Source of the DNA: Escherichia phage CMSTMSU
Direction: 5' to 3' (one strand)
Length of the DNA stretch: 64,000 nucleotides
Sequence record: MH494197.1
Part shown: in pieces, positions 53,463-59,050 of the stretch
How the letters are laid out: each line of letters begins with the position of its first letter
Numbering within the stretch: the stretch's first letter is position 1
Program-made: the position numbers and the translations under genes
The notes under the pieces: model-generated
The model's input: the letters and a program-made list of their open reading frames with translations, nothing else
What the model was told of the DNA's origin: nothing
The model's database searches: none

Positions 53463-54680
53463 TCATTGAAGTATATACTGGTTCCAATTATCGTCAAGAT
53501 CTGTAAGTACTTTAACTTCCATTACATCTTCAGGTGTGTAGAATTGCCATGTGTTATGATCTGGTTCATAATTAGGGTCTAGTGTGAAAACTGTTCCATT
53601 CTGACCATAAACTTGTCCATCCTCTAATAGCTCACGAAATAAGTCTTCCCCAGTTGTTGGGTCTTCGTATGCATTATAAAAGGAAAACAACATTCTCAAC
53701 ATCAGTTCGGTAGTACCATCGTCTTCATCATATTCAACCAAACGGTCCTGATGAAATACTAGGTCAATAGCACCAATGCGAGGTTTATTATGTGGAGTTT
53801 TGATTTCTTGCTGGGAATTGTAATCCATACGTTCAGTACTGATGAATACACCACTTGGTGTGATTTCAATACCAGATACATTTTCTGGTGAATAATAAGA
53901 GTCACACATATCATCAATATGCATGTGCTCATGATACACTTCCATTTCAGGGTTCTGCATCAACAGTGCTGCTAGGTCTTTTGCTTTCAATCTTCAATCT
54001 CCATAGAGTCATCACTTTCGTAATCATCACTAGTGTACTTAGTTTTACCTCAATACCATTCTCATGAAGGTATGTGATAAAGCCATTACCATGAACGAAT
54101 TGATTATAATATGTATTTTCTTCTACATGTGAGTCATAATCATCTTCGTAATATGTGGGCATTGTAACATCATGACCAGCACTTTGCAAGTACTGGAACA
54201 ATTCTTTCAGAACTACTTCGATATCACCTTCTTCTGTGCCATAACAATATGCAGGTTCACCGTGAGTGAATTTGAATCCTTTACAGGAAACTGTATAAAT
54301 GTCACTCATGTTCATACCACAATCATCACATTCATGTATAGAACAATGCTGGTGGAATTTAATCTTTTGATTTGCATTTAGAAAATCCTGTAAAGATGTA
54401 GTAGACATTGGACTATCAGCACCATCATACCACAGTGATGTATATGGCTGAACTGAACTAATATCAATACAGAATCCTTCACGCTCACATTTTCGAGCGA
54501 ATTCTTCAGTAGTTAGTTTGTTACCAAAAGAAATCTCAAATTCATAACTAGACATATCAATATCAGTACTGTAAATCAATGTACCATCATATGTAATATG
54601 GAGTTTAGAATCTGCGTCAAAAGACGATCTGAAATAGCTTCATAATCATCTTCAGGAACTGCTTCAATAAGACGGGCCAT
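53463..54680 (-). CDS. Hypothetical protein with Cys/His cluster; C-terminal module paralogous to 54762..55340; frameshifts
   Basis: Track ORFs 53947..54579 (HQHCSIHECDDCGMNM) and 53463..53990 (MKAKDLAALLMQNPEMEVYH...TPSGVF); the latter has no ATG in frame, consistent with a shifted continuation. Confidence 0.35.
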
Positions 54681-54761
54681 TAGTCCAGATGTTACGCGTA
54701 ATCACTCATTTTTAATCCTTTTTTTATTTTTCAAGTTTATCAATAATAGAAGGTGATACTT

Positions 54762-55340
54762 TTACATTGAATTCAGAATCAGGAAAATCTTTAGAAAATG
54801 AATCAATTTGTTCTTGTGAAAGTTCTTCTTTTGTGGAAATAACATTTTAACTAAATTTTTACCACATTCAATTGCTTCATCATACGACATAGTTTCCCAT
54901 GTTCCATGCCAAGTACTAGGTTCATATTCTGTCAGTACAGAAATGAAATCAATATCATCGGGTGTATACCAAACAGCATTTTGATTCCCTGATGGTGCTG
55001 ATTGATTTTTACCTAATAAAACAATTGGCTTTTCATAAGGAATGTTAAATATCAACCCAGATTCTAAGTTAAGAACAGTTTGAATAGATGAACCCTCCAA
55101 TTTTGGAGTAATAGTACCATCCTTAAAGAAAATTTGTACATGACCCAAGAGTGGGGTTTCATATGGTGTAAGTACATTTTCAGAAACTGATGTGGGTTTT
55201 GCCGTTGTGAAAATACCAGATGGGGTGACCATTAATTTATTATCAAAATTCTGATAATGCAATTCACTATCCACATCATAATGATAAATGTCTAGATTTG
55301 GTTGAGATAGTAGTAATTTTGCTAAATCATGAGATTTCAT
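54762..55340 (-). CDS. Hypothetical protein, paralog of the 53463 module
   Basis: MKSHDLAKLLLSQPNLDIYH...TPSGIF; ATG at 55340 with RBS GGAGAAA. Confidence 0.4.
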   Translation of the reverse strand: MKSHDLAKLLLSQPNLDIYHYDVDSELHYQNFDNKLMVTPSGIFTTAKPTSVSENVLTPYETPLLGHVQIFFKDGTITPKLEGSSIQTVLNLESGLIFNIPYEKPIVLLGKNQSAPSGNQNAVWYTPDDIDFISVLTEYEPSTWHGTWETMSYDEAIECGKNLVKMLFPQKKNFHKNKLIHFLKIFLILNSM

Positions 55341-55351
55341 TTTATTTCTCC

Positions 55352-55381
55352 AAAGAAAAGGAGAGTCACAATGACTCTCCA
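55352..55381 (-). terminator. Rho-independent terminator
   Basis: GGAGAGTCA-CAA-TGACTCTCC with a U-run on the minus transcript. Confidence 0.5.
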
Positions 55382-55574
55382 TATATTTTATTGTAAAACT
55401 TTGAGTTTGTAAAGCATTCCTTCACAAAAACTCATAATGTCTTCTAGCGTGTTAGTACTACCATAGTCTTCAGCCTCTTCTAGCATAGCATGAATGGCTT
55501 TACATTGACTAACATATTCTTCAAGAATTGGTACACAATCCTCGATAGGGTAAAACGATAACTGTTACCAGTAC

Positions 55575-55826
55575 CTACCTGCAATGCCCGCGAGTGTTCA
55601 TAATACCCTCTACAAATGCATCAACGTACTCAGGTAACTCTTTGTATAGTTCATCCAATTGTAGGTGCTTCGTGTAGAAATGGCTCTGTAAATGCCAGTT
55701 GTGAGCAGCAGCACTTAAAAATAAACTATTCTCAATAAATGTAAGTAGTACTTCATCATAAGAACTATCTTCTTCAGTATCTCCGATAAAGTCCATTACA
55801 TGTCGTAAATCATTAATATTTTCCAT
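55575..55826 (-). CDS. Hypothetical protein (possible shifted C-terminal extension)
   Basis: ORF 55575..55826. Confidence 0.35.
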   Translation of the reverse strand: MENINDLRHVMDFIGDTEEDSSYDEVLLTFIENSLFLSAAAHNWHLQSHFYTKHLQLDELYKELPEYVDAFVEGIMNTRGHCR

Positions 55827-56002
55827 AAATCTCTCCTTAGAGTTATTCTATGGTATTTAGTTAATAATAAAGGTAACTTCAGGATTCATTTCTGAAACTG
55901 CATTTCTCTTACTTCTATTCCATAGTACTCTATTGTTATATAATGAAGAATCACAAATTATAAGTAAGCAATTCCTTAATCTACTTACAGTACTTTGATT
56001 AC

Positions 56003-56284
56003 TTAAATCAGTTTCTGTAACAAAAATACATTATCAGGAACTTCTACAGGAATTGATTTATCAAAGAAGAAAACTACAATAGGTCTGTTTGTATGAACTA
56101 AATTAATAAAGTCTAAAATACTGTTATAAAATTCAGTTCCTTTGTTTAAACTTAATGGATCTTTGATTCTCTTCAAATAGGTCTGAACCAAATTATGATC
56201 GCTTTTGATTTGATACTCAAAATATTCTTTGAATAACATTTGTGTTAATTCAGATGTATTGGATATTTTCGTTGTGTTACTCAT
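56003..56284 (-). CDS. Hypothetical protein (93 aa)
   Basis: Intact ORF. Confidence 0.4.
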   Translation of the reverse strand: MSNTTKISNTSELTQMLFKEYFEYQIKSDHNLVQTYLKRIKDPLSLNKGTEFYNSILDFINLVHTNRPIVVFFFDKSIPVEVPDNVFLLQKLI

Positions 56285-57123
56285 TCACTTCGTTCTCTCG
56301 TAACTCAAGAAGTCACTACGTTTACTTCGTAAACTAGTTCCTTCTGAAAATGATAATGTACTTTAAAAGCTTGACGGATTTGTTGAGGACTATTTCATCC
56401 CCGAGGAAGAAGGTAATAAAAAGAGACAATTAAGTCTCTCTGACGATGATGGCATCGGATATTATCGAATTGCGAATTTCTCAAATTTTGGACGGATCTT
56501 TCCTGTACCAAAATTTAGAGAAAAGCGGGTTGCTCGGTTTCTCTCTATCGCAGTCATATGCAACGGTCGCTGGTCTTTTCATCAACAGCACTCAGTACTA
56601 AACTCTATTCGATCAAAGTAGTACCTGTTCTCAAATTTTGGACGCAACTTTCTTGTAAAATCGCGTCCACAATCCTGAACTCCTTAGCAAATTCGTAAGG
56701 TGCGAACCTTATACATCTATCTAGGAACTCTCTGTGTGCTTGGAGTTCTTTATACAGCCGTGTCGCCGTGATTCGTGGTCTTATCTCGTGTTTGTTTGAT
56801 TGCCAGTACTCTAACAGGTTTCTTTTGCTGTTCGCTACAACGGTAAAGCTCATCTATCCTTTACATTTTCAAGAGAAGTAGGTTCTCATTATCCATTTTT
56901 CAATGTCCGTTGTCATTTTACAATATACATTATATCACTAGGATGTATTATGTCCCGTTACATGTATACCTTTTTCAAATCCTTGGAACAACGGTCAAAA
57001 TTGTGTTGATGAATTCGACATCCTCTTTGATATTGGAGTCTATAGCATCATTCTCGTTTCTTGTTGTGTTCCTGTATTTGTGTTCAGGGTGATTGTATAC
57101 CACCTTGACTACATTATTTAGGT
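56285..57123. other. ORF-poor segment, GC-richer than its surroundings, with a ~35-bp imperfect direct repeat and hairpins; nature unknown
   Basis: Only one 82-aa ORF (56605..56853, no motif). TTCTCAAATTTTGGACG occurs at 56479..56494 and 56629..56644; hairpin GGACGC...GCGTCC at 56641-56664. Confidence 0.3.
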
Positions 57124-57369
57124 CTACAAAAATGACGATTTTTGCGTATAGGAAGCCTGAAGCTTGATGAGTTTACCATCGTTTTGTAGATTAGTCTTGT
57201 GAATTAGTTCTTCAATACCATCTAAATGGCTATAGCTATCCTGTTCTTTGACGAATGTAACAGTTACCAGTACTGACTTCTCATCTCCAAAGTCAGAGAT
57301 ATTTTTAACAGCACTGATGATTTCTAAGTTTGAAAAATCTAATTCTTTTAGCATTACAAATATTTCCAC
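57124..57369 (-). CDS. Hypothetical protein (81 aa)
   Basis: Intact ORF. Confidence 0.35.
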   Translation of the reverse strand: MEIFVMLKELDFSNLEIISAVKNISDFGDEKSVLVTVTFVKEQDSYSHLDGIEELIHKTNLQNDGKLIKLQASYTQKSSFL

Positions 57370-57710
57370 AAAGTTCGATAAGTGATAATTTCTTCTCTGG
57401 TAACAGAAACTTCATAGCACTTAACACCATCAGTTTCATTTCTGAATGGTTCTGCTGGTCTATCTTCTGTTAAACCTCGTTCATACGTACAATGATAATA
57501 TTTGTTCGTGTTCATGTCAAGAAAAACTAGATCAAATTCTTCTGTCCATCGTCTATGCCCTTTACTTTCATTACTAATGATTTTGTACTTAACATCGGGA
57601 TTGAATGATTCAGTACTGTCATCCCATGTACCATAGTCAGTATATTCATCATCTTCATCTAACTCTGCCAGATGCCACATTAACTGTGGTAAAAAGATTT
57701 TAGATTTCAT
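57354..57710 (-). CDS. Hypothetical acidic protein (118 aa)
   Basis: Intact ORF, RBS GGAGAAAA. Confidence 0.4.
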   Translation of the reverse strand: MKSKIFLPQLMWHLAELDEDDEYTDYGTWDDSTESFNPDVKYKIISNESKGHRRWTEEFDLVFLDMNTNKYYHCTYERGLTEDRPAEPFRNETDGVKCYEVSVTREEIITYRTLWKYL

Positions 57711-57720
57711 TTATTTTCTC

Positions 57721-57752
57721 CAAAAATAGGGACTCGATTTCTCAAGTCCCTA
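57721..57752 (-). terminator. Rho-independent terminator
   Basis: AGGGACT-CGATTTCTCA-AGTCCCT with a U-run on the minus transcript. Confidence 0.5.
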
Positions 57753-57776
57753 TCATAACATATTAATTGTGATTAT

Positions 57777-57980
57777 TCAATTTCTTTTGTTCTTTTTAGA
57801 GCTTTCATATGTCAAAATCACGAACATGCCATATATGGTCGGTTTCCCATAGTTCTGTACGTAAACGGCGTTCTTCCAATTCTTCTGGAGTAGGAATTTT
57901 AGATTTCTTCTTATCTTTATTGAAAAATCATTCATATGTTCTTCCAGTAGATTTCTACCCTTAACTTTTTCGGAATTCAT
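57777..57980 (-). CDS. Hypothetical protein (67 aa)
   Basis: ORF overlapping the HNH gene stop region. Confidence 0.3.
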   Translation of the reverse strand: MNSEKVKGRNLLEEHMNDFSIKIRRNLKFLLQKNWKNAVYVQNYGKPTIYGMFVILTYESSKKNKRN

Positions 57981-58365
57981 CTACTGATTCAGTTTTATTA
58001 GAACGAAGACTGTTACAACGTGAACACATGGTGTTGTAATTTGACTCTAAATCAGGTCCACCCTTAGATGCTAGTTGGTTATGATCTACTGTCATCAGTA
58101 CTTCATATAGACCACAAACTGCATAGACATTTAAGTGAGGTTTACCATATACCGGATCAGTGCTATGTGAACGCTCAATGCGAACTTCAGTGGCTTCAAT
58201 ACCACACGCAACGCATTTACAATTCTTAACGAATGTAAGTACTTTTTGTGGGAAGTATCGGAAAGTAACACCGTTATATGTATAGCGTTTCATCTGTGTA
58301 CTTCTTTGATTTAACTCATCAAGAAGTGATAGTTTGGCAACATAGTAGACCTGATATTTTGACAT
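57961..58365 (-). CDS. HNH endonuclease (free-standing homing-endonuclease-like)
   Basis: CKCVACG...HLNVYAV...TVDHNQLASKGG...NYNTMCSRCNSLRSN: Cys pairs flanking the DH-N..SKGG-N core of HNH nucleases. Confidence 0.8.
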   Translation of the reverse strand: MSKYQVYYVAKLSLLDELNQRSTQMKRYTYNGVTFRYFPQKVLTFVKNCKCVACGIEATEVRIERSHSTDPVYGKPHLNVYAVCGLYEVLMTVDHNQLASKGGPDLESNYNTMCSRCNSLRSNKTESVDEFRKS

Positions 58366-58477
58366 TTTTAATCCTCGGATTTAATTTTAACCTTAACATC
58401 TTGATTTTGTAAATCACGAATAGTTTTAATTAATGCATCATGTTTTAGTGCACAGTCATTGTACATTGCATCCCATT

Positions 58478-58681
58478 TTACGAGTACTGCAAGAATTTCA
58501 GCACCATCATATCCTCTGAACCCGTTTTATCGACCATGATTTTACTTGGTAGTGGTGTATTTTCGTCACAACGTTCAAGTAAGATTTCTTGTTCTACAAT
58601 TGGTTTAGGTTGATACTTAATTTCTTCAGCACAACCACTAATTAATAGAAAAGAAATTGCAAATACTAAAGCGTATTTCAT
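58478..58681 (-). CDS. Outer-membrane spanin subunit (o-spanin), lipoprotein
   Basis: MKYALVFAISFLLISGC: signal peptide with lipobox L-I-S-G-C; Pro-rich 67-aa product; ATGA overlap with the upstream i-spanin. Confidence 0.65.
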   Translation of the reverse strand: MKYALVFAISFLLISGCAEEIKYQPKPIVEQEILLERCDENTPLPSKIMVDKTGSEDMMVLKFLQYS

Positions 58682-59050
58682 TTGAATTTATTCCTCGCTG
58701 CAAGGGAATTCTGTTTAAGTTCATTCAGAAGTTTAACGCCATCTTCATCTAGACATACGTTTTTGTAAACTTCTCTTTCTACTATAATAGGCACTTGTGT
58801 CTCGATAACTTTAGCATTATCTTGCATTATCTTTTTGGTTTCTATATAGTTTTTGCATTTTCTTGCTGCATCTTAGCGAGTGCAGAATCAACTTTCTTTT
58901 CTATTTTTGGTCAATACTTTCTTTATAACCAGTATAATAAGTATTTGCTGACCATCCACCGTAAACACAACCTGCCATTACTCCTACTACCAAAATTGGT
59001 TTCCAATATGGTATTAAAACTTTTGAAACAATAATTTCTAGTACACTCAT
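58678..59050 (-). CDS. Inner-membrane spanin subunit (i-spanin), one frameshift
   Basis: MSVLEIIVSKVLIPYWKPILVVGVMAGCVYGGW (N-terminal TM helix) followed by a Lys/Glu-rich coiled-coil region; below the track cut-off because of the frame break. Confidence 0.5.

What the first reader, a model, noticed from the sequence alone, without database searches (positions are those of the whole stretch)
56285..57123. ORF-poor, GC-richer ~840-bp segment with 35-bp direct repeats beside an HNH endonuclease gene
In an otherwise densely coding minus-strand block this segment has only one motif-less 82-aa ORF. It contains TTCTCAAATTTTGGACG-CTTTC-TGTA twice, 150 bp apart (56479, 56629), several hairpins (for example GGACGC...GCGTCC), and visibly higher GC than its flanks. 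An HNH homing-type endonuclease gene lies just downstream on the same strand (57961-58365). Possibilities are a decayed mobile element or intron remnant, a structured non-coding RNA, or an iteron-type replication/regulatory site.
Basis: seen in the sequence. Interest (0 to 1): 0.5.

Follow-up and report, generated by a model that had tools for sequence, protein, structure and literature searches.

The report
Undescribed large structured phage RNA gene
The "empty" stretch is a gene for a roughly 550-base, intricately folded non-coding RNA that is absent from the RNA family catalogue; it occurs 3-5 times in every related giant phage and once in small mobile islands of enterobacterial chromosomes, and its function is unknown.

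Summary
The real intergenic gap is window 56285-56957. The stretch up to 57123 is the end of a DUF7325 gene, broken by deletion-type sequence errors that are specific to this window. The gap holds one minus-strand gene for a large structured RNA. It has an extended -10 promoter (TGATATAAT, 56929-56937), an inferred start near 56922, and two domains with at least 14 helices including two pseudoknots. A terminator-like hairpin lies at 56418-56440 and a conserved 3' hairpin and tail run to about 56368. On a structure-blind 30-sequence alignment, 95% of cells pair (35-45% in slid controls) and 56 of 80 pairs show changes on both sides. Phage 121Q has exactly four paralogues. Homologues occur in all RaK2-like jumbo phages, in 91 metagenome loci and in integrase-linked islands of Serratia, Enterobacter and E. 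coli. There is no Rfam match, no conserved ORF, no constant protein neighbour, and I found no paper on it. The function is unknown. I judge a trans-acting folded RNA, comparable to ROOL or GOLLD, most likely. The HNH gene is not a partner.

The parts
56929..56956 (-). Sigma-70-type promoter: -35 GGGACA, 16-nt spacer, extended -10 TGATATAAT. The inferred transcription start is near 56922.
   Evidence: It is the best promoter match in the region: 10 of 12 positions plus the TG. TGnTATAAT is invariant or nearly so in all 30 aligned family members. The start site is inferred, not measured.
56368..56922 (-). The whole large structured RNA gene. It is about 555 nt in the window and about 572 nt in the error-free EC.P1 copy.
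   Evidence: nhmmer and alignments A2 and A3; covariation; coordinates. G.U cells outnumber A.C cells 113 to 33, which fixes the strand.
56679..56913 (-). 5' domain. P1 (56906-56913 with 56837-56844) closes a junction that holds P1a (GAAA loop) and the P2 hairpin, whose loop GAAAAUGUA is conserved. P3, P3b, the P4 hairpin, the P5 hairpin and the invariant UAAGGGAG follow.
   Evidence: P1 has 7 of 8 pairs changed on both sides, P2 6 of 8, P3 4 of 5 (100% paired) and P4 6 of 6. P3b shows CCGU/ACGG changing to CCGA/UCGG.
56628..56668 (-).
   Evidence: The module UACA-N4-AG-N-U-N3-UC lies in the linker in 18 of 30 members (14 linker only, 4 at both sites).
56459..56631 (-). 3' domain, the most conserved part. 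It holds P6a, P6, P7, PK1, P8, P9 and P10.
   Evidence: Covariance model R1 gives 109.6 bits, E = 1.3e-22, and this is the only match in the window. On alignment A4, 96.8% of cells pair and 29 of 35 pairs change on both sides.
56529..56564 (-). Pseudoknot PK1: GUUGC (56560-56564) pairs with GCAAC (56529-56533), which lies in the loop of P9 (GAGAG 56541-56545 with CUUUC 56521-56525).
   Evidence: PK1 is 100% paired, with variants GUCAU/AUGAC, GUUAC/GUAAC and GUUGU/AUAAC. P9 is 100% paired, with variants GGAAG/CUUCC, AGAAG/CUUCU and GCUGG/CCAGC.
56464..56625 (-). Second pseudoknot. Hairpin P6a (56619-56625 with 56594-56600) encloses AUCGAAU (56607-56613). That segment pairs with the distant AUUCGAU (56464-56470), which is contiguous with the P8 3' strand (56471-56475).
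   Evidence: In one search, P6a has 7 of 7 pairs and P6 has 6 of 7 pairs changed on both sides. In one search both have 7 of 7.
56479..56521 (-).
   Evidence: The base of P10 covaries at 4 of 4 pairs.
56418..56457 (-). Hairpin ending in the first CGUCA motif (56441-56457), then a terminator-like hairpin GAGAC-UUAAUU-GUCUC with a U tract (56418-56440).
   Evidence: Read from the sequence and the alignment. The terminator-like hairpin is present in about half of the members. The consensus terminator scan did not call it.
56368..56411 (-). Conserved 3' hairpin P12 (UUCAUUCCCC/GGGGGGAUGAA; 6 nt are deleted in the window copy) and the tail CCUCAACAAAUCCGUCAAG, which carries the second CGUCA motif.
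   Evidence: P12 is 91.6% paired, with U.G/C-G exchanges. The hairpin and tail are about 92% identical between the jumbo-phage consensus and the E. coli island copy.
56961..57354 (-). Flanking gene, not part of the RNA: the DUF7325 protein (121Q g515, annotated 'structural protein'), split over three frames in the window.
   Evidence: tblastn; Pfam; 121Q annotation.
57766..58365 (-). Nearby free-standing HNH endonuclease gene (203 aa in relatives, frameshifted in the window). It is not a component of the element.

Best explanation
The segment is an autonomous gene, on the window's minus strand, for a large structured non-coding RNA. The RNA is about 505 nt to the terminator-like hairpin and about 555 nt to the end of the conserved tail. 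It belongs to a family that Rfam does not hold.

Shown:
- An invariant extended -10 promoter lies upstream.
- The RNA folds into two domains with at least 14 helices.
- Two long-range pseudoknots are supported by compensatory changes.
- Many unpaired nucleotides are invariant.
- A hairpin module sits at either of two sites in different members.
- The phage carries 3-5 diverged paralogues, and enterobacterial integrative islands carry single copies.

Inferred:
- Host RNA polymerase transcribes the gene (early in infection, by inference from the host-type promoter; constitutively in island carriers).
- The RNA acts in trans through its three-dimensional fold, either alone or with a host component. 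I infer this because no phage or island protein is a constant neighbour.
- It serves the mobile element in host takeover or in conflicts between elements, much as the phage-borne ornate RNAs ROOL and GOLLD are thought to.

The biochemical activity is not known.
For: - Family and copy number: four paralogous copies in 121Q, all in annotation gaps and all on one strand. RaK2-like phage records hold 2-5, mostly 3-5, matching places.
- Whole-RNA covariation (structure-blind MAFFT alignment A3, 30 sequences, 80 pairs): 95.2% of cells pair against 35-45% when partners are slid. 56 pairs change on both sides against 12-23. The covariation score is 0.441 against 0.05-0.10. None of 500 shuffles reaches the observed values.
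- 3'-domain covariation (26 non-redundant sequences including bacterial copies): 96.8% paired and 29 of 35 pairs changed on both sides.
- Strand: promoter, G.U 113 against A.C 33, and MFE z-score -3.8 for the sense strand.
- Not coding: no conserved ORF, and only 13 of 191 indels between close relatives are multiples of three.
- Module swapping between two sites.
- Breadth: 8 true homologues in Enterobacterales genomes beside integrases, and 91 of 94 metagenome loci are true homologues.
- No universal neighbouring protein.
Against: - There is no expression data for any member.
- The RNA-seq-defined ncRNAs of the related phage PA5oct are not detectable homologues.
- The 3' end is uncertain. A terminator-like hairpin lies upstream of a conserved, apparently RNA-structured hairpin and tail, and half of the members lack that terminator.
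- The four 121Q copies are fairly evenly spaced (55-112 kb apart). A purely trans-acting RNA does not predict this.
- The shuffle control can be exceeded by related sequences without structure. The slid-partner control and the number of pair types answer this, but R-scape was not run.
Confidence: 0.85

Rival explanations
1. RNA-primed replication origin. A roughly 550-nt structured transcript from a host promoter would form a persistent hybrid near its conserved G/C-rich 3' hairpin and prime DNA synthesis, as ColE1 RNA II or the T4 oriF/oriG R-loops do. Several origins would be spread round the jumbo genome, and each island would have one.
For: - The length and the host sigma-70 promoter need no element-encoded protein, which fits the lack of a constant neighbour.
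- The four 121Q copies are co-oriented and 55-112 kb apart.
- The CCCC...GGGGGG hairpin and tail beyond the terminator-like hairpin are extremely conserved.
- One island places the RNA beside two ParB/RepB-like genes.
- The features of ColE1 RNA II and the T4 origins are from my own knowledge.
Against: - The fold is far more constrained than a primer needs: two pseudoknots and many invariant unpaired bases.
- None of 72,556 plasmids holds a homologue.
- No RNA I-type antisense match was found.
- GC skew does not change sign at the copies.
- P12 keeps U.G/C-G exchanges that make sense only in RNA.
Confidence: 0.08
2. Cis-acting leader or riboswitch that controls the gene downstream, using the terminator-like hairpin and the alternative pairings AAGG/CCUU and CCUUA/UAAGG.
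For: - A terminator-like hairpin lies inside the conserved element.
- Mutually exclusive P5 and P5-alt pairings are both possible in nearly all members.
- In the window, the g517 homologue follows on the same strand.
Against: - Downstream genes differ at each paralogue.
- The 121Q 326-kb copy and the island copies face convergent genes.
- Half of the members lack the terminator hairpin.
- No neighbouring gene family is shared.
Confidence: 0.03
3. Decayed mobile element or intron remnant linked to the HNH homing endonuclease.
For: - Both HNH genes annotated in 121Q (g170, g513) lie within about 1 kb of a copy.
- An HNH-like ORF lies within 4 kb in 22 of 127 loci.
Against: - No group I or II intron, HEARO or any other Rfam model matches at E<=10.
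- The element has its own promoter, interrupts no gene and is intact across genera under purifying selection on structure.
- 105 of 127 loci have no HNH nearby.
- The HNH protein has the HNH domain only.
- The proximity is better read as homing endonucleases settling next to a highly conserved target; this is inference.
Confidence: 0.02
4. DNA-level repeat (iteron or operator) site bound by a replication or regulatory protein.
For: Two direct repeats matching at 27 of 30 positions, 150 nt apart.
Against: - There are only two copies. 21 of 30 members have one copy and 5 have none or a diverged one.
- Each copy lies within or caps a hairpin of the RNA; the base of P10 covaries, though the module stems themselves were not tested.
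- Conservation extends over 550 nt with RNA-type compensatory changes.
Confidence: 0.01
5. An ordinary protein-coding gene hidden by sequencing errors.
For: The window does carry deletion-type errors that split neighbouring genes.
Against: - Error-free relatives (121Q, EC.P1, GAP32, CBB and others) have no conserved ORF here.
- The longest ORFs are 45-82 aa and vary in strand and position.
- Only 13 of 191 indels are multiples of three.
Confidence: 0.01

Closest known systems
ROOL RNA (rumen-originating, ornate, large; Rfam family; cryo-EM in PMC12286853)
   Same: - About 500-600 nt.
- Encoded by phages and prophages.
- Complex secondary structure with several pseudoknots.
- No identified protein partner and unknown function (PMC12286853).
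   Different: - No sequence or structure match to the Rfam model.
- Not next to tRNA genes (121Q tRNAs lie at 72-78 kb).
- Found in Enterobacterales phages and islands.
- Multi-copy per genome, with diverged paralogues.
- Oligomerisation is untested.
[quoted passage not shown]
   Same: - Phage- or prophage-borne large RNA.
[quoted passage not shown] Here too, divergent members match only the 3' domain.
   Different: - Shorter (about 550 nt against more than 800).
- No Rfam match.
- No tRNA association.
- Different hosts.
ColE1 RNA II / T4 origin R-loop primers
   Same: A transcript of about 550 nt from a host-type promoter, with no dedicated protein, a G/C-rich element near the 3' end, and several dispersed co-oriented copies. 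The comparison is from my own knowledge.
   Different: - Far stronger tertiary-structure constraint.
- Absent from plasmids.
- No antisense RNA I match.
- No skew change.
HEARO / omega RNA of IscB (HNH-endonuclease-associated RNA)
   Same: A structured RNA lying near an HNH-domain gene.
   Different: - No Rfam HEARO match.
- The HNH protein is 203 aa with the HNH domain only.
- It is separated from the RNA by two genes.
- An HNH gene is absent from most loci.

Membership tests
ROOL (Rfam) | Match to the family covariance model | tested here: not met
   No match at gathering score in the 64-kb window. None at E<=10 in 56100-57300. None in six other members at E<=5 or in 145 kb of bacterial and metagenome loci.
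ROOL (Rfam) | Encoded by phages or prophages; large; several pseudoknots | tested here: met
ROOL (Rfam) | Frequent location near tRNA islands | tested here: not met
   No tRNA in the window. The 121Q tRNA cluster at 72.6-78 kb is at least 12 kb from the nearest copy.
ROOL / GOLLD | Homo-oligomeric RNA nanocage | not testable with these tools
   Needs native gels or cryo-EM.
GOLLD (Rfam) | Match to the family covariance model | tested here: not met
Group I / group II introns | Match to the intron covariance models, and interruption of a host gene | tested here: not met
   No Rfam match. The element lies between complete genes in 121Q and EC.P1 and has its own promoter.
HEARO / IscB omega RNA | Rfam HEARO match and an adjacent IscB-type (RuvC plus HNH) ORF | tested here: not met
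   No Rfam match. The neighbouring HNH protein is 203 aa and HNH-only.
tRNA / tmRNA / RNase P / 6S and other stable RNAs | Detection by ARAGORN or by the Rfam models | tested here: not met
Iteron arrays | Three or more tandem or clustered direct repeats of about 17-22 bp, conserved as DNA sites | tested here: not met
   Two copies only. The number varies from 0 to 2 among members.
ColE1-type RNA II primer | Plasmid or origin context with an antisense RNA I | tested here: not met
   No plasmid homologue and no RNA I match. Origin activity itself cannot be tested here.
PA5oct ncRNA001/002/004 (RNA-seq-defined jumbo-phage ncRNAs, PMC7318152) | Homology to those transcripts | tested here: not met
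   nhmmer gives E>=0.49. Model R1 finds nothing above noise even with filters off. ncRNA003 was not fetched.

The most novel reading that the evidence does not exclude
This would be a new class of ornate RNA machine shared by lytic jumbo phages and integrative islands of Enterobacterales. It could be a ribozyme, an RNA-only assembly, or an RNA that captures a universal host component. In that case the diverged paralogues in each jumbo genome would form a hetero-oligomer or divide tasks, and the islands would carry a copy to exploit or to interfere with the phage function.
Probability: 0.35. Interest if true: 0.9.

Novelty: new variant of a known kind. Interest (0 to 1): 0.75.

Why it matters
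Large, intricately folded bacterial and phage RNAs of unknown function are rare. OLE, GOLLD, ROOL, raiA and HEARO are the main examples, and each has repaid study; HEARO turned out to be the guide RNA of IscB, and ROOL and GOLLD form RNA cages.

This family has several practical advantages:
- It occurs in cultivable E. coli, Salmonella, Klebsiella, Erwinia and Serratia phages, and in E. coli and Serratia chromosomes, so it can be studied genetically at once.
- It accounts for about 0.7 kb gaps, left unannotated or filled with doubtful small ORFs, in dozens of published jumbo-phage genomes.
- It gives annotators a model that would replace spurious small ORFs.
- Its presence both in lytic jumbo phages and in integrase-linked islands points to a role in conflicts between mobile elements.

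Tried and rejected
- Rfam at gathering and at permissive thresholds, on the window, six other members and 145 kb of bacterial and metagenome loci: nothing relevant. The three weak hits (a snoRNA, mir-653, HPnc0580; E 1.2-6) are chance.
- ARAGORN: no tRNA or tmRNA.
- PA5oct RNA-seq ncRNAs as expression evidence: not homologous by nhmmer or by the covariance model with filters off. Only the 3' hairpin of ncRNA004 looks like P12.
- RNAalifold on the full MAFFT alignment gave a poor global structure. I therefore built the helices from a covariation scan and by hand, then tested them.
- A conserved hairpin just before the first CGUCA (P11): each paralogue can form one, but in different registers, so I left it out of the tested structure.
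- A search for a constant neighbouring protein by ORF clustering round 127 loci: none found.
- HNH as a partner: rejected.
- Plasmids: no homologue.
- A host sequence mimicked by the 3' tail: none in 5,426 E. coli genomes apart from the two island copies.
- GC-skew test for origins: uninformative.
- By eye, I considered a CsrA-site resemblance in P5 and an SD/anti-SD resemblance in CCUUA/UAAGGGAG. The GGA is not conserved, and no consistent start codon follows.
- Literature: six searches found no description of this RNA. Two of them were badly specified and returned unrelated papers.

Full report
**What the window is.** The region matches RaK2-like jumbo coliphages of the genus Asteriusvirus. 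It is 98.5% identical to phages EC.P1, Ecwhy_1 and fEgEco12 and 93.5% identical to 121Q. In 121Q the matching stretch is a 690-nt gap between g515 and g517. The only annotation there is a 156-nt ORF on the opposite strand.

**The window carries sequence errors.** Over 4.4 kb the window lacks 41 bases that EC.P1 has, and it has no extra base. These one-sided deletions split the neighbouring genes. The DUF7325 gene (g515 homologue) runs over three frames at 57354-56961. The g517 homologue is also split, and the HNH gene appears in the window as two ORFs (57961-58365 and 57777-57980) although its homologues are single 203-aa genes. The true non-coding gap is therefore 56285-56957. Seventeen of the missing bases lie inside the RNA described below, so I used the EC.P1 copy as the corrected reference.

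**Checking the observation.**
- The direct repeat is real: 56478-56507 and 56628-56657 match at 27 of 30 positions and lie 150 nt apart. BLAST gives E = 2.5e-5 within the window.
- The GGACGC/GCGTCC hairpin is real.
- GC is 0.405, against 0.264 and 0.341 in the flanks. That is only about one standard deviation above the window mean of 0.367.
- The 82-aa ORF is not conserved, even in EC.P1.

**A multi-copy family.**
- RaK2-like phage records hold 2-5, mostly 3-5, matching places each.
- I fetched the whole 121Q genome. It has four paralogous copies, at 90.2, 192.7, 247.4 and 326.5 kb. All lie in annotation gaps and all are on the same strand.
- nhmmer and a covariance model both find exactly four copies in 121Q. 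The model finds exactly one in the window.
- Distant genera keep the element at 67-74% identity in DNA that carries no annotated feature in most of those records. These are Mimasvirus (GAP32, CBB, XbC2), Eneladusvirus (Serratia BF, the Erwinia pEa phages, Yersinia Yen9-03/04) and the Salmonella 7t3/Munch group.
- An IMG/VR motif scan added more copies, giving 29 distinct full-length sequences.

**It is an RNA gene on the minus strand.**
- All copies begin with an invariant extended -10 element, TGnTATAAT. In the window this is the best promoter match: GGGACA, 16 nt, TATAAT with TG, at 56956-56929 on the minus strand.
- The alignments show blocks of invariant sequence separated by helices whose two strands change together. 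An example is GAACUC/GAGUUC, GGAAUGC/GCAUUCC, GAAGUAC/GUACUUC and CAAGCGU/ACGCUUG.
- I derived 14 helices (80 base pairs) from a covariation scan and by inspection. I then tested them on a structure-blind MAFFT alignment of 30 sequences (A3).

| Measure | Proposed structure | Partners slid by 1-3 columns |
|---|---|---|
| Cells forming a standard pair | 95.2% | 35-45% |
| Pairs changed on both sides | 56 of 80 | 12-23 |
| Covariation score | 0.441 | 0.05-0.10 |

- None of 500 shuffles reached any observed value.
- A second alignment (A4) holds 26 non-redundant 3' domains, including bacterial and divergent metagenomic copies. It gave 96.8% pairing and 29 of 35 pairs changed on both sides.
- G.U cells outnumber A.C cells 113 to 33, so the structure belongs to the promoter strand.
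- The sense strand folds with z = -3.8.
- There is no conserved ORF. Only 13 of 191 indels between close relatives are multiples of three.

**Anatomy (window coordinates).**
- 5' domain (56913-56679):
  - P1 closes a junction that holds a small GAAA-capped hairpin and P2, whose loop GAAAAYGUA is conserved.
  - P3 and P3b enclose a variable insert that comes in a short and a long form.
  - P4 is a hairpin with every pair covarying.
  - The invariant strand GAUAGAYRUAU leads to P5.
  - The invariant UAAGGGAG follows. It can pair instead with the 3' strand of P5.
- 3' domain (56631-56459) has two pseudoknots:
  - The loop of hairpin P6a pairs with a segment 140 nt downstream (P6) that is contiguous with P8.
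  - GUUGC pairs with GCAAC inside the loop of P9 (PK1).
- After the 3' domain come a hairpin ending in CGUCA and a terminator-like hairpin with a U tract (56440-56418), which about half of the members have. Then come the almost invariant hairpin P12 and the tail CCUCAACAAAUCYCGUCAG, ending near 56368.
- P12 keeps U.G/C-G exchanges, so it is probably transcribed. The true 3' end is therefore uncertain.

**What the "direct repeats" are.** They are two copies of one hairpin module with the consensus UACA-N4-AG-N-U-N3-UC. One copy lies in the inter-domain linker and the other caps P10. Among 30 members the module is in the linker only in 14, in P10 only in 7, in both in 4, and absent or diverged in 5. 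Peripheral elements of large folded RNAs often swap between alternative positions in this way while reaching the same partner. That last point is inference.

**Distribution beyond jumbo phages.**
- I scanned one genome per species with a 20-base degenerate motif from the PK1/P9 core. It gave 11 loci, 8 of which are true full-length homologues (nhmmer E <= 5.1e-86). They come from Serratia fonticola (a complete chromosome), another Serratia, Silvania, Enterobacter chinensis, Buttiauxella, two unnamed Enterobacteriaceae and one short MAG contig labelled Clostridium.
- In these genomes the RNA again fills an ORF-free gap of about 1 kb in small integrative islands. The usual order is an integrase, then the RNA on the same strand. 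A convergent cI-like S24 repressor follows, then a Ner-like protein, a membrane protein, a DUF1311-like protein and a resolvase. One Serratia island instead has two ParB/RepB-like genes between the integrase and the RNA. The integrase is either a large serine recombinase or a tyrosine recombinase.
- Two of 5,426 complete E. coli genomes have a copy. In strain LR-29-1 it lies in an island next to ffs, in a 1.4-kb stretch that RefSeq leaves unannotated. The covariance model scores that copy at 125 bits.
- The same motif found 94 metagenome loci, 91 of which are true homologues. Some divergent ones match only the 3' domain.
- No plasmid has it. In the GenBank phage collection every carrier is a jumbo phage.
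- Clustering the ORFs round 127 loci found no protein family that is always present.

**The HNH gene.** It is a 203-aa free-standing HNH-only protein. It lies upstream of the RNA, with two genes between them. HNH-like ORFs lie within 4 kb in 22 of 127 loci. Both HNH genes annotated in 121Q sit within about 1 kb of a copy. I read this as homing endonucleases settling beside a highly conserved sequence. This is inference, and it does not make the HNH protein a functional partner.

**Comparison with known RNAs.**
- No Rfam 15 family matches the window copy, six other members, or 145 kb of bacterial and metagenome loci. This excludes membership of ROOL, GOLLD, OLE, HEARO, the introns, RNase P, tmRNA and 6S as currently modelled.
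- In kind, the nearest are ROOL and GOLLD. They are phage- or prophage-borne, 0.6-0.8 kb, pseudoknotted, without a known partner and of unknown function. GOLLD also has a conserved 3' half and a variable 5' half (PMC12286853).
- This family differs in having no tRNA association, enterobacterial hosts, several paralogues per genome and integrase-linked island copies.
- The related phage PA5oct has four RNA-seq-defined ncRNAs (PMC7318152). The three I fetched are not detectable homologues, so there is still no expression evidence for this family.
- Six literature searches found no description of it, though two of them were badly specified.

**How it most likely works.**
- Shown: it is an independently promoted, structurally constrained RNA gene.
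- Inferred: host RNA polymerase transcribes it, the RNA folds into a compact two-domain particle, and it acts in trans. It would act either alone or with a host factor common to Enterobacterales and to the Xanthomonas hosts of XbC2 and XaC1, since no element-encoded partner travels with it. Its presence in lytic jumbo phages and in integrative islands suggests a role in host takeover or in competition between mobile elements.
- Main rival: an RNA-II-like replication primer or origin. The even spacing and co-orientation of the four copies, the conserved G/C-rich 3' hairpin and the lack of any protein requirement favour it. Against it stand the degree of tertiary constraint, the absence from plasmids and the unchanged sign of the GC skew. 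I give it about 0.08.
- The leader, intron-remnant, iteron and hidden-ORF readings each fail specific tests, set out under the rival explanations.

**Verdict.** The segment is a member of an apparently undescribed family of large structured RNAs. I score interest at 0.75. Novelty is "new variant of a known kind", the kind being ornate RNAs borne by mobile elements. The function remains open.

Noticed in passing
window 54600-58850: Compared with the 98.5%-identical phage EC.P1, the window has 41 missing bases and no extra base in 4.4 kb. This splits several genes (homologues of 121Q g513 HNH, g515 and g517, and probably g518). It looks like deletion-biased sequencing or assembly error, so other 'short ORF' regions of this window may be artefacts too.
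   Followed up: partly
L003:41320-42108 and L006:46019-46630 (121Q g170 and g513); window 57766-58365: The only two HNH endonuclease genes annotated in 121Q both lie within about 1 kb of a copy of the RNA gene. HNH-like ORFs lie within 4 kb of 22 of 127 family loci. They may be homing endonucleases that target or shelter beside this conserved gene.
   Followed up: partly
L004:35195-37160 (121Q record 135195-137160): A 2-kb stretch of 121Q has no annotated feature. It is not one of the four RNA copies and lies outside this window.
   Followed up: no
L061:1174-1215 (PA5oct ncRNA004, 3' end): The RNA-seq-defined ncRNA004 of Pseudomonas phage PA5oct ends in a hairpin, UUUCCUUCCC-AAAC-GGGGAGGAAAU, that resembles P12 of this family. 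The rest shows no detectable homology.
   Followed up: partly
window 56679-56686 and 56696-56700: The invariant UAAGGGAG looks like a Shine-Dalgarno sequence and can pair with CCUUA, the 3' strand of P5. This gives two mutually exclusive pairings in nearly all members. Short ORFs follow it in some members, but not consistently.
   Followed up: partly
L168:4753-16000 (E. coli LR-29-1 chromosome): The E. coli copy sits in an island of about 10 kb inserted next to ffs (4.5S RNA). The island carries a disrupted tyrosine integrase, IS3, and genes for DUF4326, DUF488 and dual-OB proteins, and a resolvase. The nature of the island (satellite, defence island) was not examined.
   Followed up: no
L069:4270-4326: There is a full-length match to the enterobacterial sRNA STnc450 (66.5 bits) just upstream of the tyrosine integrase gene of one island.
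   Followed up: no
121Q genome (L002-L008), 15 kb on either side of each copy: Mean GC skew is higher in the 15 kb after each of the four copies than in the 15 kb before: 0.10 to 0.15, 0.10 to 0.16, 0.10 to 0.13, and -0.02 to 0.06. The sign changes only at the fourth copy (-0.02 to 0.06), near where gene orientation changes. The significance was not assessed.
   Followed up: no
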